This document shows, piece by piece, positions 21,035 through 62,616 of a stretch of DNA of 64,000 nt. Positions within the stretch are counted from its first letter, which is position 1. Each line of letters starts with the position of its first letter. Under the pieces are notes generated by a model, which was not told the DNA's origin, did not search any database, and worked only from the letters and a program-made list of their open reading frames with translations. A program made the translations under genes and the position numbers. The stretch lies in assembly GCA_000004985.1 (NCBI GenBank), contig GG738896.1; one strand, 5' to 3'. Source of the DNA: Naegleria gruberi (lineage: Eukaryota).

Positions 21035-22714
21035 ATGAGCAAACGAAATAGACACAATTTTCCATTAATTCCGGAGAAGGAAATATTCAATAATAACACT
21101 CAAGCAAAAAAGAAAAAACTTGTACTCCATGAACAACGAGAAGAAATATTTTCAGATGATATTTGTTTTGAAATAATTTCCATGATTGATGATTCGTGGT
21201 TTATTTTAAATAATTGTACTTTAATTTCAAAACAATTCTTTAATGTGATCCGAGAACGTTCTAAACTTGTTATTCAATTTAAAAAAAAATTTACAGAGAA
21301 AAGAATTGAATTATTCATGAAAAGTCAATTCATGAATAGTATTGCTAATGTTAAATTTTCCGTTTACTCCTTAGACAATGCCAAATTCATAAGTGAAATG
21401 AAACAATTGACATCACTTGGTATTGCTGAAAATCGAATTGGTGATGAAGGAGTTAAATTCATAAGTGAAATGAAACAATTAACTTTACTTGATATATGTT
21501 GCAATGAAATTGGTGTTGAAGGAGCCACGTCAATAAGTGAAATGAAGCAATTAACATCACTTAATATTTCTGGCAATCGAATTGGTGATGAAGGAGCTAA
21601 ACTCATCAGTGAAATGAAGCAATTAACATTACTTAATATTGCTGACAACCGAATTTGTGTAGAAGGTGCAAAATCAATAAGTGAAATGAAACAGTTAACA
21701 TCACTTAGTATTTCTGACAACGAAATTGGTGTAGTAGGAGCAAAATTAATAAGTGAAATGAATCAATTAACATTACTTAATATTTCTAACAACGAAATTG
21801 GTGATGAAGGAGCCAAATTCATCAGTGAAATGAAACAATTGATATCGCTTGATATTTCTAACAATCTAATTGATATAGAAGGTGCAAAATCAATAAGTGA
21901 AATGAAACAGTTAACATCACTTGAGATTTATTACAATGAAATTGGTGATGAAGGAGTCAAATTCATAAGTAAAATGGAACAGTTAACATCGCTTGATATT
22001 TCTGGAAATCAAATTGGTGTAGGAGGAGCTAAATCAATAAGTGAGATGAAACAATTGACATTTCTTCAAATATTTTCCAATCGAATTGGTGATGAGGGAG
22101 CAAATTCAATAAGTGAAATGAAGCAATTAACATCACTTAATATTTATTACAATCAAATTGGTGATGAAGGAGTCAAATTCATAAGTGAAATGGAACAATT
22201 AACATCACTTGATATTGGTGGAAATCAAATTGGTGTAGGAGGAGCTAAATCAATAAGTGAGATGAAACAATTGACATTTCTTCAAATATTTTCCAATCGA
22301 ATTGGTGATGAGGGAGTCAAATTCATAAGTGAAATGAAGCAATTAACATCACTTAATATTTCTGGCAATCGAATTGGTGATGAAGGAGCCAAGTCAATAA
22401 GTGAAATGAAGCAATTAACATTACTTTACATTTCTAGCAACGAAATTGGTGATGAAGGAGTCAAATTCATAAGTGAAATGAAACAATTAACTTTACTTCA
22501 AATATATTCCAATCGAATTGGTGATGAGGGAGTCAAATCAATAAGTGAAATGAAGCAATTAACATCACTTAATATTTCTGGCAATCGAATTGGTGATGAA
22601 GGAGTCAAGTCAATAAGTGAAATGAAGCAATTAACATCACTTAATATTTCTAACAATCGAATTGGTGATGAAGGAGTCAAATTATTAACATCACTTAATA
22701 TTGTCTTATTTTAA
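21035..22714 (+). CDS. Leucine-rich-repeat protein (RNI-like, 24-aa repeats), intronless
   Basis: 559-aa ORF from the ATG at 21035. From about aa 120 onward there are roughly 18 tandem units of consensus ISEMKQLTSLNISGNRIGDEGAKS (72-bp DNA period). The N-terminus may contain an F-box-like stretch (ICFEIISMIDDSWFILNNCTLISKQFFNVI). Confidence 0.8.
   Translation: MSKRNRHNFPLIPEKEIFNNNTQAKKKKLVLHEQREEIFSDDICFEIISMIDDSWFILNNCTLISKQFFNVIRERSKLVIQFKKKFTEKRIELFMKSQFMNSIANVKFSVYSLDNAKFISEMKQLTSLGIAENRIGDEGVKFISEMKQLTLLDICCNEIGVEGATSISEMKQLTSLNISGNRIGDEGAKLISEMKQLTLLNIADNRICVEGAKSISEMKQLTSLSISDNEIGVVGAKLISEMNQLTLLNISNNEIGDEGAKFISEMKQLISLDISNNLIDIEGAKSISEMKQLTSLEIYYNEIGDEGVKFISKMEQLTSLDISGNQIGVGGAKSISEMKQLTFLQIFSNRIGDEGANSISEMKQLTSLNIYYNQIGDEGVKFISEMEQLTSLDIGGNQIGVGGAKSISEMKQLTFLQIFSNRIGDEGVKFISEMKQLTSLNISGNRIGDEGAKSISEMKQLTLLYISSNEIGDEGVKFISEMKQLTLLQIYSNRIGDEGVKSISEMKQLTSLNISGNRIGDEGVKSISEMKQLTSLNISNNRIGDEGVKLLTSLNIVLF
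21390..22690 (+). repeat. Intragenic 72-bp tandem repeat array (LRR units)
   Basis: The gtgaaatgaaacaattaacatcacttaatatttctggcaatcgaattggtgatgaaggagc... unit is repeated about 18 times with point variation. It produces spurious antisense ORFs at 21364..21720 and 22498..22680. Confidence 0.8.
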
Positions 22715-27848: not shown

Positions 27849-30800
27849 ATGATGAAAGGATATCTAACCACCCTTGTTATCTTTCTCTATTGTTGCTACT
27901 GTTTTCTCTCTTCAATAGCGTTGGTACAGGTGGGAAATTGTGCATCAATTTCACAGCAAACATTTTCATCTCTACTCAACTCGACTGAAACTCCGATTCT
28001 CTCCTTGACAATGTATCTCGGCGGAGCTAAATCTCCAACCAGTGATTCTACCAGTTGGGGTAATTTATGTGGAGTTGCAATGGAAAACCCTTGCAAAAGT
28101 TTTGGTCAATTGATGATCAGTTTTAATTCGACTTTGTTTAATTTGCATGAAAATTTCACAAATTTACAAGTTGAAAGAAATGTTTATTTGAAGATTTATT
28201 TGTTATCTAGTGATGGATCGGTTGTGTGCTCGAATAATCAGGTGGATTTGGGGATGGTTTCATCGATGAAATATTTTGTGGAAATTACAAAAATAGACGA
28301 AACTAAACCCTTGTTGATTTGTTCGAATACAGTTAATACTTACCTGAGTATTCCAATTCCACCTCAGATCAACGTCATTTACTTTCATTCTTTGAAATTT
28401 CAATCACTCTTGATCAAATATGACAATTCCAAATCAAGACCACTTGACATTTTGATTGAGGATTGTGAAATGGTGAATGTTTCAATTGAAGAATATAGAA
28501 AATCAATTCGAGATGATTGGGCAAAATATTTTATCATGGAGAATTCAAAATTTATTTCCAATATCTTTCCTCTCAAAATTCTCTATACGAATCAAGTCAT
28601 TATCGTAAAATCTCAATTTAATTACATGCTTGGAGTTCAATTTGGACACTCAGTAACTATACAAGAATCGGTAATTCTTGGACACCCTTCAATTATCTCG
28701 AATTTACAGACCTTTCGGATAACTAATTCATCCCTAGAGTCAGTTGGCATTCAAAGTGTGGAAAATGTGGATTTCATTGGTGTGTTTTTCTTTGAATCCA
28801 AATTGTATCAGACATCAATTTCAATTTCTCAGATAACTGGTTTCTCTGGCAACAAGTGGACTTTCACGGATTGCATTTCAAAACGAGTGGAAAATTTTGC
28901 ATCTATTCGCTCAGTGGAAAGTGTTCTAATTGAGAATATTTTATTGGAAAGTTCAGGTTCGATTAGTAATGGAATGGTGCCTTTTATTTATTTAGATAGT
29001 TGCAATACAGTGACCATGCTTAGGAATATCATTAAGAAAGGGGTTTCCTTCATTCAGATTAATTATTATTATACTGTGCAAATAGTTTCGTCTCAATTTT
29101 ATAATAATGCTCCGTTGCTTATTGATAGATCTTCACCAATTGAAACATCCCAAAGTAGAATTTCAATCATTAATTCAAAATTTTCTGGATCTGTTTCTAG
29201 ATATGGACCAGTCCAAATTAATTATTGCACTAATTTAAATATTTATGGTTGTGTATTTAATGATAATATAGCAACAGTGTCTGGAGGTGCTTTGTTCATT
29301 GGAAATTTAGTACATTCTTCACAAATAGCTGAAAGTTATTTTATTAATAATCAAGTGGCATGTGAAGGAATTCCAAATATGGAAAAATGTTCTGGTGGAG
29401 CAATTTCATATACCAATAGTGAAAACTCGAATGGAATTTTAATTGAAAAATGTAATTTTAGAAATAATGTTGCATCTAGAGGTGGAATTTTATATTTTGG
29501 AAAGAATAATGCCTATATTAGGGTTACTAATTCGACTATGGAAAACAATCAAGCCAAGTTGACTGGAAGCATTGCTTATTTTAATTACAAGGAAGAAAGG
29601 TATTTCCAAATGATTGATGTTAATAGGAAGAATAATTTTTCACCAACAAGCATTGATTTGGCTGAGAAGATTTCGTATAATTCAGCTTCAATTATGGGAA
29701 TTTCCAATGAGAATGATGTATATGAATTGTCCATTGGGAAAAAGTATTCACTTAACCTTACTGGTACGGATGGATATGGAAATCAAACTAATCAAGTTAT
29801 TGATCAATTATCAATAGAATCATCTGATTCTCGTTTGACAATGACATTAGATCAGCAACTAGATTCGATTACTTTCCAACTATTCTTCCTTGATTCGGCT
29901 CAGAATTTCTCATTGCTGGGTTTCAAAAATACTTTTAAAATTACAACACCTAACAACCCTGTCAATCTTTCCATTATAATCAAATCATGTGATACAGGTT
30001 TTGAAATAACAAGTACAGTTACCGAAAAAACTGGAATTTACTTGTACGATTGTCGACCTATTCCTGTATTCCCTATTGGAATATTATTGGGTTTAGTAAT
30101 TGGATGTTCATTATTTGTTTTTATTTTAGGAGTTTCTATTGGATTGGCAAGTTATTGTTTGTGGAATGTTGTTAAAAAGTTGAGAAAACTCAGACAAAAG
30201 GAAATTGCAGAGAAACAAATGGAAGACGCTTTATTGAATAAGAGAATAATATTCAACATGACAGAGGATGAGGAGGAATACTATGAGAAACGACCAGAAG
30301 CCGAATCTGGTAGTAAGAATTCAAAAGCTTCCTATCAGAAACTTCCTGATTCTGAACTAAGTTCTTCCTTAATGAATCAAAACAAGACTAAACATAGATA
30401 CAGCATGTCCTCTTCATTCATCATCCCAATAGAAGATATCACAATTATCAAAAAGATTGGTGAAGGAGGTGCTGCAAATGTTTATTACGGAACTTGGACG
30501 AATATTAAGGTTGCAATTAAATCTCTCAAATCTGAAATTAACGAAGATTTCGAACAAAATTTCGAAAGAGAAGCTTCCATTTTGAGTAATATTAGACATC
30601 CAAATGTTTTAACGTTTTATGGTGTTTGCTTAACAGATAAAAGTCGATACATTGTAACTGAATATATGGAGAAGGGAACATTGGAAAAATTTATATACGA
30701 AAGTAGAAATAGAGGAATGAATATTGAGCTTCTCAAGACTATTCTGACATTATTGTGTGGAATTTCTAATGGAATGCAATATCTTCATGCACTTAAACCT

Positions 30801-31435
30801 GCTGTCATTCACAGAGATTTGAAATCGAGTAATATTTTACTTGATGAGAGGAATAATCCAAAAGTTTCGGATTTTGGATTGGTGAAAGTTTTAGGAACGA
30901 ACACAATGCAAACTCAAATGACGAAAGCCATTGGAACCATCTTTTTCATGGTAAGTATTGTAAAATTTAATTCGAATCTCACTAATTTTCTCAAAGGCAC
31001 CAGTAAGTATTTCTATATTTCGATTGACTTGAATCAAAATTTATTGAAATTTGACAGGAATCTTTCATGACTGATCATCCAATTGATAATAAGGAAGCAG
31101 CAACCAAACTAGATGTCTACAGCTTTTCAATCTTAATGTGGGAATTATTCTTTAGGAAAAGTCCCTACCATCACGTCAAGAATACTTTCAAAATTCCACA
31201 ACTAGTTTGCGATGGTGAAAGACCTCAAATACCCTTCTCTGTTGGAAATCAAGAAGAAATTAGGGAATGGTTATTGGAAAGTAATGGAGAATCTAATTCT
31301 GATGTGGTGATACAGTGTATTGATCGATATTTTTCACTTGTTGTAAAGTGTTGGAATCACAATCCATTGGAAAGACCTTTATTTTCGAATATTAGACAAG
31401 AATTGGAAGAAATATTGTCAAGCATTAACCATTAA
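27849..31435 (+). CDS. Receptor-like TKL protein kinase: signal peptide, beta-helix-repeat ectodomain, single TM, cytoplasmic kinase; 3 exons (27849..30950, 30997..31002, 31058..31435)
   Basis: Signal peptide TLVIFLYCCYCFLSSIALVQ. The ectodomain carries repeated N..A..GGA.Y/F units (CVFNDNIATVSGGALFIG, KCSGGAISY, NNVASRGGILYFG, NQAKLTGSIAYF), typical of parallel beta-helix or Pmp-type repeats. The TM segment is IGILLGLVIGCSLFVFILGVSIGLASYCLW. The kinase shows IKKIGEGGAANVYYGTW..VAIK, HRDLKSSNILLD, DFGLVKV. The GT..MAPE motif is restored only by splicing a 6-nt micro-exon GCACCA (Ala-Pro) between GTAAGT introns of 46 and 55 nt. Confidence 0.8.
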
Positions 31436-48148: not shown

Positions 48149-49312
48149 TCAACAATTATTCATACGGTAAGCAAATGCATACTGAAGAGGAAATTGTAAA
48201 TCTTGAATTGAATCTTCCTTTGAACTAATCTCAAAATAAACTAATTTTGCATTTGAGAATTTCATTGCATCATTATATGTGGGCACAAGTTCAGCAATAT
48301 ATTCAGAAATTACTTGTTGAGAGACTTGTCTTTTCAAATCCCTCTTCATTCCCAAAATAATAAACAGTATGCTATCTTTTCTGGTATCTTCTTTCATTTC
48401 TCTGAAAATGTAAAATTGCTGGTCCAAATCGACAACTTGTTTTTTCATATCCTCAAATGAGGCGGAATCACTCAAATCAAAGCAGAAGAAAACAACACGG
48501 GCTCCTCTATAGTAAGATAATGAGTTATGTGAAAATTGTGGATCACCACTTGTGTCCCAAATTAGAAATTTCATCATACATTGACTATCGTTAAAGTATT
48601 TCGGATAGAATTCCACGCCAATTGTTGGACGATATATACTGCTAAATTCTGATTGGTGTAACCTTTTCAAATATTCACTCTTTCCACATTTCATAGGTCC
48701 TAACAATGTCACATTATGGAGATAGTCAATTTTCTTCTCTGGACGAGATTGACTCTTTCGAATTTCACTCATAAATCTTTCATACAATAAAACATAATCC
48801 CGTGGATGCACCATCTGCATCTGACTCTTCTCGTATGCAACTGGTTTGAAATGTATCCAAGTTTCATTGGCAAGCTTATTCAATTCTTGTCGCCAAAAAA
48901 TATCCAATCCCGACCAAACGTTGAAACTCTTTGAAACTCTTTCCATCATTATAACATCAAAGATTGTAAGATAATCCATAATGTGCATTTTCATCTCATC
49001 AGGTAATTTGATAATTAAAATTCCTAATTTTGTTGTTATTATTGAATTGTTAGTTTCATCATGTATACTATCAATTTGTTGTTGTTCATTGAAATTTTCA
49101 TCATGATCACAATTAATTAATTGATTATTATTCCGATCATCTTGAGAAATTAAATTATTCTCTTCTTGCTGTTCCGATGTGTTGGGAAGACTTTGAACCA
49201 ATGCTGAATATCTCGCTGATGAAACCAATTTCCAATGCGAAAATTGTTGATATCTTGAAAAATCGATTACCTTTCTAGTACTACTTGCTGGCGGCACTTG
49301 TTTTTGTCCCAT
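48149..49312 (-). CDS. Chimeric F-box / Rab-like small GTPase protein, single exon
   Basis: The ATG at 49312 starts MGQKQV.... The F-box-like stretch is LPDEMKMHIMDYLTIFDVIMMERVSKSFNVW. The GTPase domain shows GPMKCGKSEY (P-loop), YRPTIGVEF (Rab switch I), LIWDTSGD (G3), and ILGMKRDL (G4, NKxD-like). Confidence 0.65.
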   Translation of the reverse strand: MGQKQVPPASSTRKVIDFSRYQQFSHWKLVSSARYSALVQSLPNTSEQQEENNLISQDDRNNNQLINCDHDENFNEQQQIDSIHDETNNSIITTKLGILIIKLPDEMKMHIMDYLTIFDVIMMERVSKSFNVWSGLDIFWRQELNKLANETWIHFKPVAYEKSQMQMVHPRDYVLLYERFMSEIRKSQSRPEKKIDYLHNVTLLGPMKCGKSEYLKRLHQSEFSSIYRPTIGVEFYPKYFNDSQCMMKFLIWDTSGDPQFSHNSLSYYRGARVVFFCFDLSDSASFEDMKKQVVDLDQQFYIFREMKEDTRKDSILFIILGMKRDLKRQVSQQVISEYIAELVPTYNDAMKFSNAKLVYFEISSKEDSIQDLQFPLQYAFAYRMNNC

Positions 49313-50408: not shown

Positions 50409-51314
50409 TTAAGCATTGAAACCAGCAGCTCTAACAACTTGTGCAGAGGTGTATGATGAAACACTGAATCCAGAATCATTAACTTCGAAAACACCATTAG
50501 AGTAACTCTTAGCCAAAACCCAATGTCCACCATTTCTGACGTTCAAAATGACAACCTTTCCTTGACAGACCCAATTGATAATAGCTTGCTTATCAGTAGT
50601 TTGTCCAAGATAATTGAATCCAAGTCTAGAAACAGCTCCCCAAACAAACAAATTTCCATAATAACCTCCATTCTTCAACAAGTATTGGTTCAATTGACCT
50701 GGGTTCATTGAACTCTTTCCTCTACCATTCAAAGCAGAACAAACTGAATTCATCAAACAACCAACTTGACAAATAGTGGAAGAACTTCCAAGTCTATCAC
50801 CACCCCATCTAGAATCACATTGTTTAAAGAGTGGATAATTGTAATTTTGTCTACAACCAGATGTAGAACCACCACCACCACCTCCATTTTGAACAACAGT
50901 TAAGAAATTAGAGGCAGCATAACCAGTTCCAAAACTACCAGAAACCTTATACCAAGTATAACCACATCCACTTTGGACTTCACCAGTGAATTTGACAACT
51001 TGACCATTTCCAAGAGTAGTAATAATTGATTTACCAGTGCATGGTCCACTTCTGACATTCAAAGCAGTGGTTGCTTTCAAGGAAGCTCCACTAGCAATTG
51101 ATGAATCAGATTCGGCATCTGACATTTCGAAATCTTCTTCAGATTCGGATTGAACACTTTGAATGGCATTAATTGGAAGATCAATAGCGAAATTGGTGGC
51201 CAATGAAGGTTCTCCAACCAATTTGACACTTCTATTGTTTGGATAAGCACGTTGACAAGAGACAACGACAGCAAATGTCAAGAGCAATAAAATTCCCACG
51301 AAGATTTTGTTCAT
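50409..51314 (-). CDS. Secreted bacterial-type cell-wall hydrolase-like protein: signal peptide, SH3b domain, Gly linker and papain-like C39-type cysteine peptidase domain
   Basis: The ATG at 51314 starts MNKIFVGILLLLTFAVVVSCQ (signal peptide). The SH3b-like segment is LNVRSGPCTGKSIITTLGNGQVVKFTGEVQSGCGYTWYKVSGSFGTGYAASNFL. A GGGGGGS linker follows. The peptidase module has Cys in QVGCLMNSVCSAL and His in NGGHWVLA, then NDSG. No intron. Confidence 0.6.
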   Translation of the reverse strand: MNKIFVGILLLLTFAVVVSCQRAYPNNRSVKLVGEPSLATNFAIDLPINAIQSVQSESEEDFEMSDAESDSSIASGASLKATTALNVRSGPCTGKSIITTLGNGQVVKFTGEVQSGCGYTWYKVSGSFGTGYAASNFLTVVQNGGGGGGSTSGCRQNYNYPLFKQCDSRWGGDRLGSSSTICQVGCLMNSVCSALNGRGKSSMNPGQLNQYLLKNGGYYGNLFVWGAVSRLGFNYLGQTTDKQAIINWVCQGKVVILNVRNGGHWVLAKSYSNGVFEVNDSGFSVSSYTSAQVVRAAGFNA

Positions 51315-51729
51315 TTTTTTTGTGATGATTTTTTGGCAGTTGAAAGGTTGAATATTAAAATCAAATTGCTGCTCAGCCAATACGGATAATAAACATGAAC
51401 GAGATGGTAATGAAAGAATAAAAATAGAATGTTAAATAATTGGGGCATTATGATATTGAGGGGGCATTGAAACGAATCGAATAGAAAATGTGCATTTATT
51501 CCAAACAAAATACTAAGTGATGCTTGAAAGGTAATCTTGCGCTGGAGTAACCGACAACATGATCTTGAAATGCATGCTTGTTGTTTGAAGAAGGTGGTTA
51601 TTGTAATAGTTTGTGATTGTTCAAATGGATGTTAGATAGAGAAATTTCAATCTTTTTGCATCTACAGTTCTATCAAATAACTTCTTTCCAATATTCGAAT
51701 AAGATTTTTACAAAATATACAATAGGATT

Positions 51730-53037: not shown

Positions 53038-56000
53038 TTATTCAACCTTAGATGATTGCTCTGATTGTTCTAGAGAGAGGGATCTGAAAATAGGGAAGAA
53101 GGAAGTAACATCATCATTGTCTTCACATCGATCGTAAATGTATTGTTCTGTACCTGTGAATTCAGTCACTGATTTTTGGTAGAGGTAAATTAAAAAGTAG
53201 ACATAATTCCACAAGTAGTGTTCCTCCTTGACATGCTTTTCAAAGGTGATACCTTCATTGGCTCTTGTATCGAATTTAGTTCGTTCCAATCCACAAATAA
53301 AACACTTATCTCGAATGTCCTTCTTTCTGTCTTCTCTTTCATTTCTCAGTACTTCAAACGAATCGAGAATGACACCAAACACAACGTTAACAAGTAACAC
53401 AATAACTATCACTAAAAAGGAAAGGTCAAGTATGGCTCTCTGAACTGAAACATTTGGATCATAAATATCCTCCCAAAAAGATTCTCCTCTAAAGCCATAA
53501 TCCAACATGGTCACATAGCAAGCTAACATATCTTCACATGTCTTGTCGCCTGTCTTGGAGATTTTAAAATCTGAAGAAAAGAAGGTAAAATAGAGTGTAC
53601 CAAAGAAGAATAAGGCAATACACAACAACATTCCTGTAAAGAACAAACGTTTCACATTCGAAGTAACTGATTTCAACACATCGGTCAATGACTTGAAGAT
53701 GTAAACCATTTCAAAAAGCTGTATCGAGTAAATAATTGGAGTTATCAACAATCCAATCACAGAGACTACAATGTAAATAATAAAATACCAAATTTGAGAA
53801 TCTTGTATGGTATATAAAAAGCATTTGGTCATAAAATCAAAATCTCTTGGAATTGAGTCCCACGTTTCGTTTTTCTTTAGCTTGAATCGTTTCTTCACTT
53901 CCAACGTCAAGAAGAGTGATACATAAATGACAAATAGAATTACCAGGAAAATCAATTGTGTCACACCAACAATAATAAGAATTATATCACTTGCAAGATT
54001 TCTAGGTGCTGTAGTTTTGGTGAGAGCATATACATCAAAGTCACTGCCAGGTAAAGGTATTTGAGAATACTCTGTTGTTGCATAAATTCTCTTAAATGTT
54101 CCCAAAACAATAATATTAATAATAACAGAGAGGAAGAATGAAGACAATCTCAAGTAATCCCACCAATTGGCAATATATTCCCATGATGCTGTTTTAACCT
54201 CTTGTTTCTTCTTTTTCTTTCGTTTTGCTAGCAAATTGCTGGTTGTGGCAACGAGAGACATTGAAGGCAAAAGATTTTCCATTTCCTCCTCTGGTTCCTC
54301 TTCTTCTTTCTTGTTGAGATTCGGAATAGTAAAAGTCTTTTTCATATTTTCATAGTGACACATTTCCACATAGAATGTACTGAATGTGTCATTGTACAAT
54401 TTCCTAACTTTTTCTTGTGGAGTCATTACGTGCAACGAATTGGCATAGTTGCTTCTTGCCTTATCGATAATATTGTTACATATTGTTGGTTTGGGAAAGT
54501 AGATCTTTTCAAGTACGTTATTTCTCAATACTTCAATGCTACCAGTTCTTTGTTTGAAATAAGAGAGCTCCTTTGAATTGGTTTGGAAAAAGTTGGCTAC
54601 TCTTGATTCCTCTTCCAAAGCTTGAGTACCCTTTCTGAATTCAGTCTCACTGTCCCTGATCATGGAGAGAAGGAAAAAGATGTGAGTTCCCAAGTCATCG
54701 TATTGCAATCTAATCTTCTCGAGATTGTCCTCCATATAGTCGTCGACACGGATTGGCTTCTTTGAACTCTTCTCAGATTGATACAAAACATGGAATCCAA
54801 AGTCTTTACGCATTCTCTTTTTGAGTCTTTCAAGATCATCACAATCATCATGGTTATTACCCGATAGAGTTTCGAACAATCTCAAAATGTACAATAATTT
54901 TTGTTCAAAATCATCCAAATTCAAAGAATTTTTCATGAATTCTAATGTGACTGTGTTTCTTCCTTCCAATAGAGATATTAAGAAGAGTGTAATTTCCTTC
55001 TTGAGGTCAAGCTCTTGTTCCTTCAACAACTTGCTGTCATCGTAGGTCTTACTCATGATTTCATTGATAAGTCTTGGATAAATCTTATTGGATGTACCAA
55101 TTAAATTTTGGTTAAAGACAGCAGGTCCTTGGACAAATTCGGTCAGGGTCTTAAAACCTTGGATGGCTACTTGAACATTGTCTGCATCCAATTTCTTTTC
55201 CAAAGCAATCAAATATTCAATAATTTCCGTAATTAAATCAAAGCTGAAAATATTTCTTGGTTGATGTTTCAATAGGGCTTGATTTTTGGTATTATGGCCT
55301 TCACACAATAATCTCAAAAATTCCATAGTGTTAAAAATGAATCCCTTTTCTACAAATTCCACACCAACTTCATCTTCTTCGTTATCATGGTCAGCATTGA
55401 GGTTAGTTGTAGACTTTTTCTGGTTAGCTAGTGCCAACTCCTTGTCTCTCTTTTTCTTCAAGTGATTCTTCATTTGTTTGATTTCAATCTTTGAGAGACG
55501 GATTCTGTCTCTAAGAGACATGAAAAATTCGGTAGAGTCTTGATCTGTAAGAAGCGAATAAATATGATTCTGAACGTCAAGATCTCCGTCATTCAATATT
55601 AAAATACCAAGCTCCAAAGCTGATTTTGCAATTTGATGGTGGTTAGAGTTGAGGAATTCAATAACTACCTCAGGAATTTTCTTTTCCACCAAATCTAATT
55701 TAAGAGTTGATTCTTCGGTTTGTTGGTTTTGCCTTTCAACAATACTCTTCAAAATATCCATACCAAAGAGTCCTACCTTCATGTTCTGAAGAAGTAAACC
55801 AGAACTATTCAAGTCACGTAATACATTGACGAGTGTTTTGATAAATCCATCATATTTGATAAATATGGCAGCAAGCTCTGAAAAGTTGGAAAAGTTTCTA
55901 TTAATCTTGGAAATTATTCTGTCTTTCAAGTACTTTTTGTATGTGTTGTGGATAAGTTCGTCCTTCTCGGTACTGGTTGATGTTTGTATTCTTGATCTAT

Positions 56001-59000
56001 GTACCTTGGCTTTAGTGGCCTTATTTGAAATGAAATTAGAAATTGCTTTCTGACTAGTTGAAGACATACTTCTCTTCAACATGGCCTGAATACATTTGAG
56101 AACTTTATCCCTATTCTCTGGATTTGGTGTATGTTTGTGAAGTTCTATGAGTTTTATCAACAAATCTTCTGCAATATCCAACTGTTCTTTTGTCAGATTT
56201 GGAGGTGGGAAGTGGAGATGGAAATAATCTCTCACACAAGGAATCATAATATCAAACAAATAGGTATTATCAACTTGATAGGTTTCTTGATCTTCCTCAC
56301 TAGGTCCAACGACTTTTGGAAGTGCTACAGAGTATGTTTTCGAAGATCGTTTGGAAGCAGTTGTTGACAATCCACGGTTTTTGGTTGGAGTAGCAAACAG
56401 TGAAGTGTTTGAGAGGGTTTTGCTTGGTGTTGTTGGGGTTCGAGTATGGGCATGCATAATACTTTGTCTTTCACCTTTTTGTGTGGATAAAATCAAGTCG
56501 TTACCATCTGATTCATTTGAATAGGTCATTTCTAACACTTCCAATTCAGTAACCATTTTAGAGAATAACTTGAAAAGCATTGGATGATGAACATTTACCA
56601 TCTTGCTCTCAGATTCTGTAGAGTCATCTGATGCCTTTTCAACATTCAAGTAAATTTCATCAATAACTTTAACCAATGGATTTCTCAATACAGGTAGAGT
56701 ACAACAAATAACTTGTTCTAAAAGTTCTTCATAGCTGTAGAGGGTTTGTAATTTAAGCTCACTCTCTCTGTTTTTACCATCAGCAAGAGAGGCCAACAAG
56801 TATAAAAGGGCAATGTGATAATTTAAAATACCATCTGGTTCAGTTTTGTGTTCACCTTTGATAATTCTTTGATTACGTTCTCTGAGACCTTCTTCGTCTT
56901 TGAAAAGAATCATAATGTCCTTCTTTCTTTCGAGCAGATATTTGGTAATGAGTGATTGGTTTCGTTTGATTGGATTGCCATTATTTGTTCCCAGAATGAC
57001 ATGCAAGAACAACAACATGAAAGAGCAAGGTTGCTCAGCAATTTGGTCAATGTAGTGTTCGATTAATTTTTCTTCAATAGTACTGCACAGACCTCTATTG
57101 TCTCTTACCATTTCACAAAGGAGAATGACAATCTTCTTATCTAGACTTCTATTCTCACCAATAGTGTGAATAAAGAATTCCAATTGTTTGAACATAATCT
57201 TTTGATTGTCTTGATTTCCTCTAACAAAAGCAATTAAAATATCAATACCAATCTCTTCAATTTCCTTGCTCACAATATAATCCTTCTTGAGGAATGTGAG
57301 AATAATATCATAAATGAAGAGATTTCTCACTATTCTTTGTGATCTTTGACCATTCTTCTTGATATCTGATAGGATTTCATTGAGAGCTTTTAGGACTTTT
57401 TTCTCTTCCTGTTCTGTGAGTCTTCTAGTACCAAAATAATTGCTTTGACCATAACCAAAAACAGATCGCAACTCAACTACCTGTGAAAGTAGCAAATCGT
57501 AGGATTTAGCCATTTCTCTCGAAACGATAAGTTCAATCTTTGGAAGAACTTCACATAATTCTTGAGCAGATCTGTACTTTCTAATTAGTAAATCAAGGCA
57601 GGTTGTAGCGAGTTCCTTATTTTCATATTTGGTCAGCGAAAGAATTTTAACATCGAATCGATCCATCTTGTTGAAAATAACATCCTTTTCGAGAATATCT
57701 TTGATTACAGCATATTCATTAGAGTCAATTTCGGCAAGTCTTTTCTGTTGTAAAGCTCTATTGTCCATTGGTATCACCTCTTGTTCTCTAAGTACAGTCT
57801 CAATCTCTTCCTCTCTGTATTTCTTCCAAAAGAATTGCAAGAATTTTGTCACTCTCTTGTCTAAAATAATGTCTAGAATCATGTGGAAGATGGAAGCAAT
57901 TTCAATTTTGATCTTCATGAGGGTTAAATTTTCTTCTACGTTTTTGTGTCTTTCTTCCTCACTAAGAATTCTACCATCCTTCTTGTCATTATCTCCTCTG
58001 AGCATATCAAAGAGAGAATTCAACAAATCACCCTCCTCAAAGTCTATCAATGTAAGAACTCCAAATTCCAACATTCTCTTACACATAATTACAACGTATA
58101 ATGTAAAGTTGTTGTGATCCTTCTTTTCTAAAGACACATCCAAGCTAACATTCTCTCTAAGGAATTTCCCTAAAAAATCTTTGATTTCTGCCAAATCCTT
58201 TGAGTTGCCGTCTTCTTTTGATCTTTGATTGAGAGTACTGGTTTTTCTGGTGTAGTCAATCAGTGGTTTCTTTTCTCTCTTCTCCGTATCAATGAAAGTT
58301 TGGATCAAAAGCTTTACAAATGATGTTCTGACGGCTGGTGTTAAATTCTTATCAGAGACACATTTGTGGACAACTTCGTAGGTGAACAGAGAAACAACAG
58401 ATCTTCTCGCATCCTCAATTTCTTCATTTCTTCCTGTACAGAGGGCAGCAAAAAGACGAATTTCCTCTTGGAAGAAGATGAGTTGTTCATAATTTGGTCT
58501 TGTGTATCCATTGTATGTATCATCTGTTGCAGACTGAGAGAAACTAATCAAGTCTATTTCATCATGATTGACTTCTACCACAACCTTGTCTTCATTGTTA
58601 AGCTTTGGAATGATAAAAACTCTTCTCAATTGGTCCTTATATTTTGAAAAAAGCAAATTACCAATATATACCTGATTTTTCACCACAGTTTTACCTTCAC
58701 AAATGATCAAGCTAGTCAAAAAGGATAAATAGACAGCCTTCTTCAAGCTCTTGGAACTTTGTCGCATACCAATCTTTGATGTGTTTTCAAAGAGAAGCTT
58801 GACGAAAAAGTCAATTTGTGACTCGGTAATCTTGTTCAAAAGTGGATAATTGTTGGATAAGATTTCCAACAGAGCTTCACTTGCAGCAATGCTATGTTCA
58901 ATCAGAGTTTGGATAAAGTTGATATATTGTGCCATGTAGAGACCGTTAGATTCGTTTGAAAGGACAAACTGTCTAATGAGTCTGAAGGAGTACTGAACCA

Positions 59001-61385
59001 CATCAAAATAAAGTGCCTTCTCTGGCTTTTCATAAATTAAAGATAAATCCTCAATTGATAAATATTTCTTCAATAATAGAGTGATATTTTCCATTACAAG
59101 ACCAATGACTCCCATATCTCTGATGATATTTTGTCTAAGTTTAACAGGAATACCACCTCTTGTTAGAGGGTCTGTCTCTTCACTAATAGTACAAAATCTA
59201 ATGCAATTTGCCAATGCACCAATGTAGAGTTTGATATCTGACTTGTCAATGAGCGAGTCGTCCAACTTGGATTTGAAATACCTAATAATTGGCATGTAAC
59301 CAGCTACGGTGAGTGCATCATTCAAATCCTCATGTGAAACAGCTGAAAAATTGAAAACATCCTGTTCAAACATTTTCAAAGATGAAGTTACTCTCTGATA
59401 GGTTGAGTCAGCAAGTGGTCTAGATATGTGTACCCAAGAATTAGTGGCTTCATGCCTCAATCTAAAGTAATCGGTGGTTTGAACTTTCTCACCCTTCTTT
59501 TGTCCTCCAGTCGAGTCGGTGAAATGGAAGACACTGGTTGGTATTGGTTGTGTAATCAAGTCATCAAAGTTTTCAACATGAAGAGTCCACAATGAATCAT
59601 TTTGTGTTACGCTGCCTGATCTATTTCCTCGTGGAGTGGCTACAATTGAACTTTTTCTAGGTGCATTAACTCCAAGTTGGCTCAAGTTATCACCAGATGT
59701 TGGTGTGTTTTCTCGTTCATATCTTTCTTCAATGGCATCATCCGCTTCAATGGTTATTCCTTTAATAGGACGAATCACCATGTATTTTCCACTTGCCAAG
59801 TGTCTTAGACGGAATTTCGAAGTCCACTTTACAGTACCAGAACAGCTAGAGTCTAAAAATTCCAATTGCCACAAAGTTTGAGGACTCACATAGTCAGAAG
59901 ATTTAGATTCCATACCAGCCAAGCTTGTATCCTCAGAGTCGTTGATTTGTAGATTGCTTGATTTCTTGAAAAATTTAATTCTATCCGTTTTTTCATTCAC
60001 TCCAATATATCCTTCCAATTCCTTGTGGTATATTCTCATAATGGTGGATCCTGCTTTGAGTTTTCTATTTGTTTCATCATTTTGTGGTGTGTATTTTTGG
60101 TAGAGTTTCATTCTCCACCTAGTGAATGCAGTACTATTCGCCATGTTAACTTCTCTTCTACTATCGTAGGAATATTTTCCTCTATTTCGTGATAATTTTA
60201 CAGCTTGTTGAGCTAATTCTGTGTATGAAGAATTTTCATTCACTCTTTGATAGGTACCATCATTGTCTTCTCCAGTTGTGTATCTATAATAGGATAAGTG
60301 AATAAATTGGTTGGACTTTTTGTTGTAAAGTCTAATTTGATCAGTGAGTTTAACTTGATCTCCATCCTTTTGAAAACTGGAATATGGCATTATTTGAAAG
60401 TATGAATAGGTAGATCCTTCTTTATCGAGGGCCAATCTCATACAATCCTTTTGCATTTCTGCAGATTCTCTTGCTACTGTCAGATAGCACTGTGTTTGTA
60501 CATGATACAATTGTACTGTTTGTCCATAGACAACTGGTTTTGAAAGGTTTCTTTGTGATTCCATCCTATTTTGTTCAAGTTCTCTTTCAGCTCGTTGTTC
60601 CAATTGTTGATATTCTGTTGAGAAGGAGGCTGTCGAAGGCATTACATTATTCTTGTTATCCTTTGTTTTTTTGTTGGCCTCTTTCAACTCTTGTTCTTCT
60701 TTGAAGGTTTTGAACTTTTTCAGTGCTGAATAACTCTTTGGATGACAAATCTTGAAAACACAATTAGAAAAGTTTGGTGTAAAGAAGGAAGAATCCTTTT
60801 CTGAAATGACAGATTCCACCAGACCACATCTAGCTTGTGGTTTGTTTCTAAAATATTGATGAAATAATAAAAGTAGTATTTAACAGAGAATAAAGAAGGT
60901 GAATAATTAGTTGAATATTTAAACAATATTTACCCTTTAACATTCTCGGAACAAGTCAAATTAATACCATCCACACTCAAGAACCCAATCATTGAATTAC
61001 CAGTACTTTTTGATGACAAATCCGTATAGAAGGAAATTTCCTCTCCAATTCTCAAATAATCTCCCTTCTTTTTCATCATCATATTATTCATCCACAATTG
61101 TTGCTCATCCTCCTTCACATCACTCATCACATCTTCATCCTCATCATACAAATGATGATCAAAGCCTTGTTGTTGCTGTGCAGAAGAGGATGATGATGAC
61201 GAATATTCGGAATGTTGTTCATGATGATGATTTGATGTGGCGCCATTATTTTTAACGGCAGAAGTGGCGCTTACCGATACGATGAGTTGTTCTTGTTGTT
61301 GATGAAATAAGAGTGCATAGTCAAAGAGGTGTTGTGATGATGGTTCGGAAGAGTTGCTATTGTTATGATTATTGGATAGTGTCAT
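53038..61385 (-). CDS. Inositol 1,4,5-trisphosphate receptor (IP3R/RyR superfamily) homolog, 2 exons (61385..60934, 60847..53038), about 2750 aa
   Basis: The exon-1 tail LRIGEEISFYTDLSSKSTGNSMIGFLSVDG is like the IP3R N-terminus SFLHIGDIVSLY...GFISTLG. The minus-strand GTAAAT donor at 60933 and AG acceptor at 60849-60848 (86-nt intron) continue into NKPQARCGLVESV...FSNCVFKICHPKSYSALKKF (like [20 protein letters not shown]). A six-TM C-terminal channel region follows. The signature tail is CFICGLERTKFD...FEKHVKEEHYLWNYVYFLIYL (IP3R: CFICGLERDKFD...EEHNMWHYLCFIVLV). Confidence 0.85.
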
Positions 61386-61584: not shown

Positions 61585-61743
61585 AGTTGAAAAAAAAGAA
61601 CAAACATCTCATCAAGGTTTTGCTTTTGATTTACAGTTTTTTTGTATTCCTTCCGATCACTGACTCACCCTGGCTACAACTTCTGTAATATTGTTATTCT
61701 TGCTACAGTAATACTCCTCCTTTTTGTAAATATATTAAAAAGA

Positions 61744-62616
61744 ATGAAATTAACAATTCGATCCGATAAACCAATTGTAAATTTGTATAATAATTTCCCA
61801 AAAGATTTAAGGGAACATTTGGAAAAGTGGGATTTAGGTACTGAGAGTACTTTCTATGAATCGTTCTATGTGGATTTGGATATGAATCAACATGATGAAG
61901 CATTAGTAAATACCGAATCTAAGGAACTGCTCCTCAAAAGGGCCCTTGCAAATTCTGATCAAATCAAGGAACTGGCTAATGAGTACTTGAATAGATTGAA
62001 AGAGAGATTTATTTGCTGTGGAGCTCTGCATCAATTAGATACTGTTCAAGATGTGTCACCTATGAACATCAAGTTGGCAGACATGACGTTAATTCAGAGA
62101 GAATTTCTAACCAATGAGTCGTTGTTATACTTGAAATCTCTCAACACCAGAAAATGCTTAGACGAACAAATTGACTCTGAAATGTATGTCTCTGATGAGT
62201 ACAGAAAGGCTATGGCATACATGTTGTGGGCTGAAGGATGTACCTATTACAATGAAGATACTTTCATTGAGAATTGTAACTTCCAACAGTACGGACTAGT
62301 GGAGGACTCTTGGACTAATATTTGTGCTCGAGAGCTACTGTTGCATATACATGCAAGATTGGTTATAGGAGGAAAATTTGGCCAGTATGAAGATAATTTG
62401 ATGCCATATTTTAATAATACCAAGTTACTATATAAGAACATTGTCTCCGTGCAGAAAGTGAGCAGTGTTGATTCAAATCAAAGTAGTCAAGGTTTTTCCA
62501 TTGCATCCAAAGCGTACAAATGCCCAGTCACCAACGATCTGGTGGATAAGAGTTACTTCCTCCTAATTGTTCATCCAATAGATAAGAAGGTTACAATCAT
62601 GTTGCATGCAGAGTGA
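61744..62616 (+). CDS. Hypothetical protein (about 290 aa)
   Basis: The ORF-track start at 61642 is TTG. The first ATG at 61744 gives MKLTIRSDKPIVNLY.... No recognisable domain. Confidence 0.45.
   Translation: MKLTIRSDKPIVNLYNNFPKDLREHLEKWDLGTESTFYESFYVDLDMNQHDEALVNTESKELLLKRALANSDQIKELANEYLNRLKERFICCGALHQLDTVQDVSPMNIKLADMTLIQREFLTNESLLYLKSLNTRKCLDEQIDSEMYVSDEYRKAMAYMLWAEGCTYYNEDTFIENCNFQQYGLVEDSWTNICARELLLHIHARLVIGGKFGQYEDNLMPYFNNTKLLYKNIVSVQKVSSVDSNQSSQGFSIASKAYKCPVTNDLVDKSYFLLIVHPIDKKVTIMLHAE

What the first reader, a model, noticed from the sequence alone, without database searches (positions are those of the whole stretch)
53038..61385. Full-length IP3-receptor homolog with a single 86-nt intron
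The N-terminal suppressor and IP3-binding-like region, the long regulatory region, the six-TM channel and the diagnostic CFICGLER.KFD C-terminal motif are all present. IP3Rs are patchily distributed outside animals. Its presence helps constrain the lineage and implies IP3/Ca2+ signalling. The pore-loop region reads TMLDYGFRGESFWEDIYDP rather than the metazoan GGVGD selectivity filter, which is worth examining.
Basis: partly seen in the sequence, partly recalled or inferred. Interest (0 to 1): 0.5.

Follow-up and report, generated by a model that had tools for sequence, protein, structure and literature searches.

The report
Naegleria IP3-receptor-like channel, unusual pore
This is an intact, already-catalogued Naegleria gruberi gene for a giant IP3-receptor-like calcium-release channel, ordinary in its architecture, but belonging to a group of amoeboflagellate channels that have replaced the near-universal pore filter and most of the IP3-binding residues.

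Summary
On the minus strand, exon 1 (61385-60934), an 86-nt GT..AG intron (60933-60848) and exon 2 (60847-53038) encode 2753 aa. This is 100% identical to the N. gruberi "predicted protein" XP_002672696.1. The N. lovaniensis orthologue has an intron at the same site and phase.

The domain architecture and best matches are IP3R-type (IP3R1 E=7e-100). No RyR-specific domains were found. The Ca2+-activation site, S6 gate, S4-S5 linker and C-terminal zinc finger are conserved.

The reading "IP3R proper" is only partly supported. Of the ARM1 IP3 contacts, only R504, R506 and R511 stay basic. K508 is N, Y567 is N, R568 is E and K569 is S. The beta-trefoil contacts cannot be aligned reliably.

The odd pore loop is real and shared by the whole group. 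RSGGGVGD is replaced by R-x-x-[GSA]-x-[WFLP]-E-[DN] in 24 sequences. These come from at least five Naegleria/Willaertia paralogue lineages, one other heterolobosean, a jakobid and some unnamed environmental sequences. With the filter columns removed, the group has 95% NJ bootstrap support.

Best reading: a Ca2+-co-activated endomembrane cation-release channel of a heterolobosean-specific IP3R-like subfamily. Whether IP3 gates it, and which ions it passes, are unproven. Interest is moderate.

The parts
60934..61385 (-). Exon 1 (ATG at 61385; residues 1-150 plus the first 2 nt of Gly151). It encodes a low-complexity N-terminus and the first strands of beta-trefoil 1 (LRIGEEISFY 111-120, GFLSVDG 134-140).
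   Evidence: hhalign aligns residues 109-145 to IP3R1 residues 7-36. The motifs are conserved in Naegleria/Willaertia homologues.
60848..60933 (-). Intron, 86 nt, GTAAAT...TTTTAG, phase 2.
   Evidence: The N. lovaniensis orthologue has an intron at the same position and phase (141 nt). The residues across the junction (VKG|NK..RCGL) are conserved in orthologues.
53038..60847 (-). Exon 2 (residues 151-2753 plus stop codon TAA at 53040-53038).
60223..61055 (-). Suppressor-like / beta-trefoil 1 region (Pfam Ins145_P3_rec, residues 111-359). The genomic span includes the intron.
   Evidence: E 1e-23, domain 1, aligned to IP3R1 51-200.
59422..59886 (-). MIR / beta-trefoil 2 (residues 472-626). The candidate R265-equivalent dibasic motif RIKFFKKSS is just upstream, at residues 440-448.
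58939..59154 (-). ARM1 half of the IP3-pocket equivalent. GIPVKLRQNIIR (716-727) gives K720, R722, N724 and R727 at the R504, R506, K508 and R511 positions. SNESNGLY (781-788) gives N782, E783 and S784 at the Y567, R568 and K569 positions.
58645..59214 (-). RIH domain (residues 696-885, best stretch).
   Evidence: E 1.5e-27.
55123..55305 (-). ARM3 part of the conserved cytosolic Ca2+-activation site: LCEGHN 1998-2003 (E2000, H2002) and TEFVQGP 2053-2059 (E2054, Q2057). It lies within RIH_assoc (1985-2071).
   Evidence: Residue definitions are from PMC9522344.
53341..54159 (-). Six-TM channel domain (residues 2381-2653), including the S4-S5 linker SLTDVLKSVTSN 2537-2548.
53467..53529 (-). Pore helix (2591-2601) and non-canonical selectivity-filter stretch YGFRGESFWED (2601-2611). 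This aligns without gaps to rat IP3R1 2541-HGLRSGGGVGD-2551.
   Evidence: Filter definition is from PMC9663519.
53350..53442 (-). S6 pore-lining helix (2620-2650) with N2638, F2641 and L2645, equivalent to N2583 and gate residues F2586 and I2590.
53218..53304 (-). C-terminal zinc-finger motif CFIC...H....H (C2666, C2669, H2689, H2694). TEFTG 2712-2716, the LNK part of the Ca2+ site, lies just downstream.

Best explanation
The locus is the N. gruberi gene NAEGRDRAFT_52142. It encodes one subunit of a tetrameric, six-TM endomembrane cation-release channel of the IP3R/RyR superfamily, with IP3R-type architecture.

It belongs to a heterolobosean-specific clade with at least five paralogue lineages in Naegleria and Willaertia. 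In this clade the canonical GGGxGD selectivity filter is replaced by x-x-[GSA]-x-[W/F/L/P]-E-[D/N], which in this protein reads G-E-S-F-W-E-D.

Most likely mechanism, by homology:
- Cytosolic Ca2+ binds the conserved ARM3/LNK site (E2000, H2002, E2054, Q2057, T2712).
- With the N-terminal beta-trefoil/ARM1 ring, this drives opening of the conserved S6 gate (F2641, L2645), through the conserved S4-S5 linker and zinc-finger/LNK module.
- Cations then leave the store through a filter whose acidic ring is supplied by the invariant E2610, with D2611.

The N-terminal pocket keeps three ARM1 basic residues but has lost K508, Y567, R568 and K569. IP3 is therefore not a demonstrated ligand. If an inositol phosphate or another anionic ligand binds, it must bind differently from the animal receptor.

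Shown here: gene structure, family membership, conservation of the Ca2+ site, gate and zinc finger, the divergent pocket and filter, and the clade. Inferred: tetramer formation, endomembrane location, Ca2+ permeability, Ca2+ activation and the ligand.
For: - Gene model; identical to XP_002672696.1; intron position shared with N. lovaniensis.
- Architecture and similarity: Pfam Ins145_P3_rec + MIR + RIH + RIH_assoc + Ion_trans; IP3R1 E 7e-100 over 9 collinear stretches; hhalign probability 100, 2276-2314 aligned columns.
- Ca2+ site: LCEGHN, TEFVQGP, TEFTG and LLEGRN are conserved. The residues are as defined in PMC9522344.
- Pore and gate: N2638, F2641 and L2645 match N2583, F2586 and I2590; the zinc-finger C, C, H, H are conserved.
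- Pocket: K720, R722, N724, R727, N782, E783, S784.
- Filter: 24 sequences have the motif, with Y, R and E invariant, D17/N6/G1 at the last position and W15/F4/L4/P1 before the E. Of the 138 other sequences in that alignment, 124 match a permissive canonical-type pattern, G-[GA]-[IVLM]-[GAS]-x.
- Clade: 23 of the 24, plus two variants, form a clade with 95/100 NJ bootstrap once the 9 filter columns are removed.
- Taxa: Naegleria gruberi, N. fowleri, N. lovaniensis, Willaertia magna and Heterolobosea sp. BB2.
Against: - There is no functional, expression or localisation evidence of any kind.
- The beta-trefoil half of the pocket cannot be aligned reliably, so the pocket may be less degenerate than it looks.
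- Kinetoplastid IP3Rs also lack many of the canonical basic residues yet respond to IP3 (PMC3194816, PMC6027440).
- In Capsaspora, conserved Ca2+-site residues do not give mammalian-type Ca2+ regulation (PMC9522344). Conservation of the site therefore does not prove Ca2+ activation.
- The AF2 model of the channel domain was poor (pLDDT 56), so the filter geometry is unknown.
- The tree is NJ on 242 columns, and deep placement relative to IP3R and RyR is unresolved.
Confidence: 0.6

Rival explanations
1. It is a bona fide IP3-gated Ca2+-release channel. PLC-derived IP3 binds the beta-trefoil 2/ARM1 cleft and, together with Ca2+, opens a Ca2+-permeable pore. The altered residues would be lineage-specific solutions to the same chemistry.
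For: The architecture and best similarity are IP3R-type. Basic residues are kept at the R504, R506 and R511 positions across the ten closest homologues (10/10, 7/10 and 10/10). A dibasic KK sits at or next to the R265 position. The motifs GIPxKxRQ...R and NESNGLY are among the most conserved stretches of the family. Kinetoplastid homologues lacking many canonical basic residues still respond to IP3 (PMC3194816; PMC6027440).
Against: Three of the four P5-coordinating residues are lost (K508 to N, Y567 to N, K569 to S). One P1 ligand is charge-reversed (R568 to E). None of the heterolobosean paralogues examined has the RRKR/YRK signature. The filter lacks GGGxGD, and the canonical Asp is Asn in 6 of 24 family members.
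Confidence: 0.3
2. It is a channel with changed permeation: for example a mainly monovalent-cation or otherwise non-Ca2+-selective endomembrane channel, or one with much reduced conductance. The cause would be the bulky aromatic residues and the Glu that replace the glycine-rich filter.
For: In G-E-S-F-W-E-D, every position of the IP3R1 filter G2546-G2550 is substituted. That filter and D2551 and G2550 form the luminal Ca2+ site (PMC9663519). The post-filter linker is also about 5-6 residues shorter than in canonical channels. The motif is conserved across a clade, so it is a selected property and not decay.
Against: An acidic ring is retained: E is invariant and D is present in 17 of 24. R2604, N2638 and the whole S6 are conserved. 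Canonical IP3R and RyR pores are themselves only weakly Ca2+-selective (own knowledge). No structure or electrophysiology is available.
Confidence: 0.15
3. It is a pseudogene, an annotation artefact or a false intron: the two ORFs are not joined, or the gene is decaying.
For: No transcript evidence was available here. The public name is only 'predicted protein'.
Against: The ORF of 2593 codons has no stop (chance about 1e-83). The intron has canonical GT..AG ends and restores the frame. Its position and phase are conserved in N. lovaniensis although the intron sequence is not. Exon 1 supplies beta-trefoil strands that align to IP3R1 residues 7-36. Orthologue identity is 64-67% and functional motifs are invariant.
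Confidence: 0.03

Closest known systems
Animal inositol 1,4,5-trisphosphate receptors (ITPR1-3; e.g. rat IP3R1, PDB 6mu1, 3jav, 7lhe)
   Same: Size (2753 aa against ~2750). Collinear domain order: beta-trefoil 1, beta-trefoil 2/MIR, ARM/RIH, RIH_assoc, six-TM channel, zinc finger. Conserved Ca2+-activation site residues, S4-S5 linker, S6 gate (F, I/L), N2583 equivalent, and CFICGLER.KFD...H....H.
   Different: About 21-24% identity. The filter RSGGGVGD is RGESFWED. IP3 contacts K508, Y567, R568 and K569 are N, N, E and S, and the beta-trefoil contacts are not alignable. The S5-P luminal loop and the post-filter linker are short. The N-terminus has a long low-complexity extension.
Kinetoplastid acidocalcisomal IP3Rs (TbIP3R Tb927.8.2770, TcIP3R)
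   Same: They are IP3R-like channels from another Discoba lineage. They also lack many of the ten canonical basic IP3-binding residues (PMC3194816), which shows that divergence of the pocket does not by itself rule out IP3 responsiveness (PMC6027440).
   Different: They keep the GGGxGD filter (PMC3194816). Diplonemid relatives in this search also have canonical-type filters (P0088, P0090, P0092). No kinetoplastid sequence was aligned here.
Ryanodine receptors (RyR1-3)
   Same: The channel domain, Ca2+-activation site and zinc finger are shared. RyR1 matches residues 2496-2736 at E 2e-53.
   Different: No SPRY or RyR-repeat hits in Pfam at E<=0.01, half the size, and no similarity outside the C-terminal region in phmmer. 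RyRs have a GGGIGDE filter.
Oomycete and other protist 'IP3R-like' homologues with degenerate IP3 pockets
   Same: The IP3R domain architecture is present with limited conservation of IP3-binding residues (PMC9694693). In this search only 6 of about 80 diverse representatives with an ARM1 match had the full RRKR/YRK-type signature.
   Different: Those in the present sample keep a canonical-type GG[IVLM]G[DE] filter. The FWED-type filter is restricted to the heterolobosean clade, one jakobid and a few unnamed environmental sequences.

Membership tests
IP3R/RyR superfamily of intracellular cation-release channels | N-terminal Ins145_P3_rec/MIR beta-trefoils, RIH and RIH_assoc solenoid, and a C-terminal six-TM Ion_trans domain, in that order | tested here: met
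   all five Pfam families score above their curated cut-offs; 9 collinear stretches match IP3R1.
IP3R/RyR superfamily of intracellular cation-release channels | Conserved cytosolic Ca2+-activation site (rat IP3R1 E1978, E2042, T2657; RyR1 E3893, E3967, T5001) | tested here: met
   LCEGHN (E2000), TEFVQGP (E2054) and TEFTG (T2712) are aligned. Residue definitions are from PMC9522344. The RyR1 numbers are from own knowledge.
IP3R/RyR superfamily of intracellular cation-release channels | S6 gate motif N-x-x-F-G-x-I-[IL]-D-x-F and C-terminal C2H2 zinc finger CxxC...H....H | tested here: met
   NVVFGVILDSF 2638-2648 and C2666, C2669, H2689, H2694.
IP3R/RyR superfamily of intracellular cation-release channels | Selectivity filter GGGxGD (PMC3194816; rat IP3R1 2544-RSGGGVGD-2551, PMC9663519) | tested here: not met
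   An ungapped alignment gives R-G-E-S-F-W-E-D. Only the flanking R and the final D are retained.
IP3 receptor proper (IP3-gated) | ARM1 (alpha-domain) IP3 contacts R504, K508, R511, Y567, R568, K569 (plus R506) | tested here: not met
   The corresponding residues are K720, N724, R727, N782, E783, S784 (plus R722). Three of seven are retained as basic and one is charge-reversed. phmmer and hhalign give the same mapping.
IP3 receptor proper (IP3-gated) | Beta-trefoil 2 IP3 contacts R265, T266, T267, G268, R269 (and S274) | tested here: inconclusive
   phmmer places FFKKSSN on FLRTTG, so R265 aligns to K. hhalign places LAGMES on LRTTGR, so no basic residue aligns. The region borders a variable 13- to 80-residue insertion.
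IP3 receptor proper (IP3-gated) | IP3R-type rather than RyR-type architecture: ~2700 aa, no SPRY or RyR repeats, full-length similarity to IP3R | tested here: met
   (IP3R1 E 7e-100 across the whole length; RyR1 2e-53, C-terminus only).
IP3 receptor proper (IP3-gated) | Specific IP3 binding and IP3-evoked Ca2+ release | not testable with these tools
   This needs binding assays or expression in IP3R-null cells.
Ryanodine receptor | SPRY domains, RyR repeats, ~5000 aa, GGGIGDE filter | tested here: not met
   No SPRY or RyR-repeat hit at E<=0.01. The protein is 2753 aa and its filter is GESFWED.
Heterolobosean 'FWED-filter' IP3R-like clade (defined here) | Filter Y-G-[LFIV]-R-x-x-[GSA]-x-[WFLP]-E-[DN], and membership of the clade recovered without the filter columns | tested here: met
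   P0001 lies inside the 25-tip clade (95/100 NJ bootstrap) and inside the P0001-P0008 subclade (100/100). Motif census.

The most novel reading that the evidence does not exclude
The FWED-type pore marks a previously undescribed, Discoba-restricted subfamily of IP3R-like channels. It has expanded to at least five or six paralogue lineages in Naegleria and Willaertia and is perhaps shared with jakobids. On this reading the subfamily has both a different permeation pathway (an aromatic/acidic filter instead of the glycine-rich one) and an N-terminal pocket that does not bind IP3. These amoeboflagellates would then run Ca2+-induced or otherwise-liganded store release without a canonical IP3 receptor.
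Probability: 0.3. Interest if true: 0.6.

Novelty: new variant of a known kind. Interest (0 to 1): 0.42.

Why it matters
The gene itself is not new. It has been in the N. gruberi genome release as an unnamed predicted protein, and its IP3R-like domains are picked up by routine Pfam annotation.

What seems not to have been described, at least in the literature searched here, concerns the whole heterolobosean set of these channels. All of them have replaced the GGGxGD selectivity filter, which is otherwise kept from animals to ciliates, kinetoplastids and diplonemids. They have also lost most canonical IP3 contacts, while keeping the Ca2+ sensor and gate.

If confirmed, this gives a natural experiment on what the glycine-rich filter contributes to conductance and selectivity in giant release channels. 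It also cautions against scoring "IP3 signalling present" from homologue presence in comparative surveys. N. fowleri carries members of the same family. That makes them parasite-specific channel variants, though nothing here shows they are drug targets.

Tried and rejected
- AF2 of the C-terminal 384 aa with an 8-sequence alignment gave pLDDT 56 and pTM 0.29. Only the secondary structure was used (P-helix 2591-2601, loop, S6). No fold search was run on so poor a model, and the second structure job was not used.
- The search for homologous proteins with the C-terminal alignment A3 returned nothing at E<=1e-40, not even the query sequences. This looks like a candidate-selection failure and is uninformative.
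- The look-up of encoding contigs for the N. gruberi paralogue P0004 found no record. The suspected missing 5' exon of that model could not be checked.
- hhalign and phmmer disagree on the R265-R269 region, and I could not resolve it. An ungapped extension from the conserved anchor HKELEGY/FHAEQEKF favours R265 aligning to K, but a one-residue shift occurs among paralogues.
- Ten literature searches (one of them was rejected for a malformed term) found no paper describing Naegleria IP3R-like channels or an FWED-type filter. Huang et al. 2013 (PMC3562765) and Foskett et al. 2007 (PMC2901638) are not held. My recollection that comparative surveys such as Collins & Meyer 2011 list an IP3R homologue in N. 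gruberi could not be verified.
- dN/dS against N. lovaniensis was not attempted, because at 64-67% protein identity synonymous sites would be saturated.
- RyR membership, pseudogene status and a chance ORF were considered and rejected (see rival explanations).
- Monophyly of all FWED-type sequences including the jakobid Stygiella was tested and not supported (4/100).

Full report
**1. Observation**

The feature lies on the minus strand. The ORF listing gives a 2593-codon ORF at 53038..60819 and a 151-codon ORF at 60930..61385.

Reading the junction, exon 1 ends ...GTT AAA GG at 60934. Then come GTAAAT...TTTTAG (60933..60848, 86 nt), and exon 2 starts at 60847 with the A that completes a Gly codon. 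Joining them gives 8262 nt, or 2753 aa, with a single terminal stop.

There is no GGVGD or GGIGD.

At this base composition, an open frame of 2593 codons has a chance probability of about 1e-83.

**2. Identity of the locus**

The spliced protein is 100% identical over its whole length to a 2753-aa "predicted protein" of Naegleria gruberi. Its accessions are EFC39952.1, XP_002672696.1, NAEGRDRAFT_52142 and UniProt D2VTL3. The window is therefore N. gruberi DNA, and the public model already contains this intron.

There is independent support for the intron. The N. lovaniensis orthologue (P0002, 64% identity in the BLASTP alignment, 67% in the MAFFT alignment) was fetched as locus L001. Its 8544-nt gene holds one intron of 141 nt, GTATGT...GATAG. 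This lies after ...AAG GG and before A AAT AAG, the same codon and phase as here, and the intron sequence is unrelated.

The residues across the junction (VKG|NK..RCGL) and the exon-1 motifs LRxGDxISxY and GFLSVDG are conserved in Naegleria and Willaertia homologues. They align to IP3R1 residues 7-36. Exon 1 is thus needed for a complete first beta-trefoil. No transcript data could be consulted.

**3. What kind of protein**

Pfam gives Ins145_P3_rec (111-359), MIR (472-626), RIH (696-885, two stretches), RIH_assoc (1985-2071) and Ion_trans (2498-2655). All score above their curated cut-offs, and there is no SPRY or RyR-repeat hit.

Against solved structures, the best matches are IP3R1, IP3R2 and IP3R3 (E 7e-100 to 1e-93), in 9 collinear stretches from residue 175 to 2748. 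RyRs match only residues ~2470-2736 (E about 1e-53). A profile-profile comparison of ten heterolobosean homologues with eight vertebrate IP3R1s gives probability 100, with 2276-2314 aligned columns at 24% identity.

Hydropathy and the alignment place the segments as follows: S1 ~2381-2404, S2 ~2437-2465, S3/S4 2503-2536, S4-S5 linker 2537-2548, S5 2551-2577, pore helix 2591-2601 and S6 2620-2650. The AF2 model of this region was of low confidence (pLDDT 56), but its helices fall in the same places.

Superfamily membership and the IP3R-type architecture are therefore solid.

**4. Conserved functional sites**

- The Ca2+-activation site shared by IP3Rs and RyRs (rat IP3R1 E1978, E2042, T2657; PMC9522344) is intact: LCEGHN (E2000, H2002), TEFVQGP (E2054, Q2057) and TEFTG (T2712). 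The E2101 equivalent, LLEGRN, is also present.
- In S6, NVVFGVILD keeps the equivalents of N2583 and the two gate residues F2586 and I2590 (N2638, F2641, L2645) (residue roles from PMC9663519).
- The zinc-finger Cys and His residues are conserved.

**5. The IP3 pocket**

According to the IP3-bound IP3R1 structure, P5 is held by K508, R511, Y567 and K569. P1 is held by R504 and R568, and P4 by T267, R269 and S274 (PMC9663519).

For the ARM1 half, phmmer and hhalign agree. The table gives the residue in this protein and the residues in the ten closest homologues (order P0001, 2, 3, 4, 5, 6, 7, 8, 10, 11).

| IP3R1 residue | This protein | Ten closest homologues |
|---|---|---|
| R504 | K720 | KRRKKKRKRK |
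| R506 | R722 | RRRNHIRRRR |
| K508 | N724 | NNNKQTQQIN |
| R511 | R727 | RKKRRRRRRR |
| Y567 | N782 | NNNNNHNNNN |
| R568 | E783 | EEEEEEEEST |
| K569 | S784 | SSSSVVVTSE |

For the beta-trefoil half, the alignments disagree. phmmer puts K on R265, and hhalign puts nothing basic there. The segment borders an insertion that varies from 13 to about 80 residues.

None of the other heterolobosean paralogues has the RRKR/YRK signature. In the diverse sample, only 6 of about 80 representatives with an ARM1 match have it.

Three, perhaps four, basic residues remain. Three of the four P5 ligands are gone and one P1 ligand is charge-reversed.

[quoted passage not shown] I therefore treat IP3 gating as possible but unproven, at about 0.3.

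**6. The pore loop**

The stretch from the conserved YG[FL]R to S6 aligns without gaps to rat 2541-HGLRSGGGVGD-2551. The correspondence is H to Y2601, R2544 to R2604, S to G2605, G to E2606, G to S2607, G to F2608, V to W2609, G2550 to E2610, and D2551 to D2611.

This is not a peculiarity of one gene. I searched 1.84 billion representatives with the C-terminal 794 aa (4634 hits; best 150 returned). The pore alignment of 152 sequences from the two searches and the motif census on 162 show 24 sequences with Y-G-[LFIV]-R-x-x-[GSA]-x-[WFLP]-E-[DN]. In these, Y, R and E are invariant. The last position is D in 17, N in 6 and G in 1. The residue before E is W in 15, F in 4, L in 4 and P in 1. Of the other 138 sequences, 124 match a permissive canonical-type pattern, G-[GA]-[IVLM]-[GAS]-x.

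The named FWED-type sequences come from several species:
- N. gruberi: 2 sequences
- N. lovaniensis: at least 3
- N. fowleri: at least 3. A fourth N. fowleri homologue, the truncated P0009, lacks the pore region.
- Willaertia magna: 5, plus P0070 with the variant filter GGGW-D
- Heterolobosea sp. BB2
- the jakobid Stygiella incarcerata

The closest canonical relatives that could be named are Rigifila and diplonemids.

An NJ tree on 242 C-terminal match columns, with the nine filter columns removed, recovers a clade of 23 FWED-type sequences plus two variants (Willaertia P0070 with GGGW-D, and an environmental sequence). Bootstrap support is 95/100, and P0001-P0008 form a subclade at 100/100.

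Stygiella falls outside this clade (4/100). Apart from the filter, it resembles canonical channels (45% identity to human IP3R1). Its filter may be ancestral to a larger Discoba group, or it may be convergent.

The post-filter linker is also 5-6 residues shorter in the FWED-type sequences.

**7. Mechanism**

This part is inferred. The protein most likely forms a tetrameric endomembrane cation-release channel. Cytosolic Ca2+ binds at the conserved ARM3/LNK site. Coupled through the conserved S4-S5 linker, LNK/zinc-finger module and N-terminal ring, this opens the F2641/L2645 gate.

The luminal acidic ring that attracts cations would be supplied by the invariant E2610, with D2611. The aromatic F2608 and W2609 either narrow the filter or pack behind it. 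Which of these applies cannot be decided without a structure.

The ligand of the N-terminal pocket is unknown. The conservation of GIPxKxRQxxxR and NESNGLY within the family shows that this surface is constrained, but that could be for structural reasons.

**8. Comparison and novelty**

The protein works like an IP3R/RyR-superfamily channel and has the IP3R architecture. It fails two features that define an animal-type IP3R: the canonical ARM1 pocket residues and the GGGxGD filter. I therefore file it as an IP3R-like channel of a heterolobosean-specific subfamily, a new variant of a known kind.

The gene itself is already public. I found no paper in the searchable library that describes Naegleria IP3R-like channels or this filter. 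An Acrasis kona genome paper reports no IP3R detectable by BLASTp in that heterolobosean (PMC11589745).

**9. Verdict**

Interest is moderate (0.42). The find is not surprising as a gene. However, the clade-wide replacement of a near-universal pore motif, together with a degenerate IP3 pocket, is a concrete and testable lead for people working on the evolution and permeation of giant Ca2+-release channels.

Noticed in passing
window 61642-62616 (+): This ORF has a Pfam CFAP300 (cilia- and flagella-associated protein 300) match, E 6e-16. It lies 256 bp upstream of the channel gene's ATG and is transcribed divergently. A CFAP300 gene is also near the N. lovaniensis orthologue (L001 1-345), but there a PAP2 gene lies between them and the orientation differs.
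   Followed up: partly
window 48149-49312 (-): A single ORF combines an F-box (residues 101-141) with a Ras/Roc-type small GTPase domain (201-367), which is an unusual fusion.
   Followed up: no
window 50409-51380 (-): This ORF has a 'bacterial SH3' (SH3_3, PF08239) domain, E 1e-10. It could be a bacterial-type domain in a Naegleria gene.
   Followed up: no
P0004 (N. gruberi paralogue XP_002675052.1, NAEGRDRAFT_50531), not in the window: The public model starts at MISNFQQCVF. It lacks the beta-trefoil-1 start (LRxGDxISLY..GFLSVDG..RCGL) that its N. lovaniensis orthologue P0005 has. It has probably lost a 5' exon across the same conserved intron. The locus could not be fetched.
   Followed up: partly
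P0009 (N. fowleri FDP41_007007, 1767 aa): This is the closest N. fowleri homologue found for the N-terminal part of this gene (56% identity over 36% of the query). It carries only the N-terminal domains, so it looks like a truncated or split gene model.
   Followed up: no
P0099 (Stygiella incarcerata, EukProt transcriptome): A jakobid channel has the filter YGLRSGGFWEDV, but its C-terminal domain is otherwise closest to canonical channels (45% identity to human IP3R1). Its tree position is unstable. Shared ancestry and convergence are both open.
   Followed up: partly
window 21035-22714 (+) and 27849-31070 (+): There is a large leucine-rich-repeat protein, and a 1073-aa protein with a C-terminal Tyr/Ser-Thr kinase domain. 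Both are typical of the expanded Naegleria signalling repertoire.
   Followed up: no
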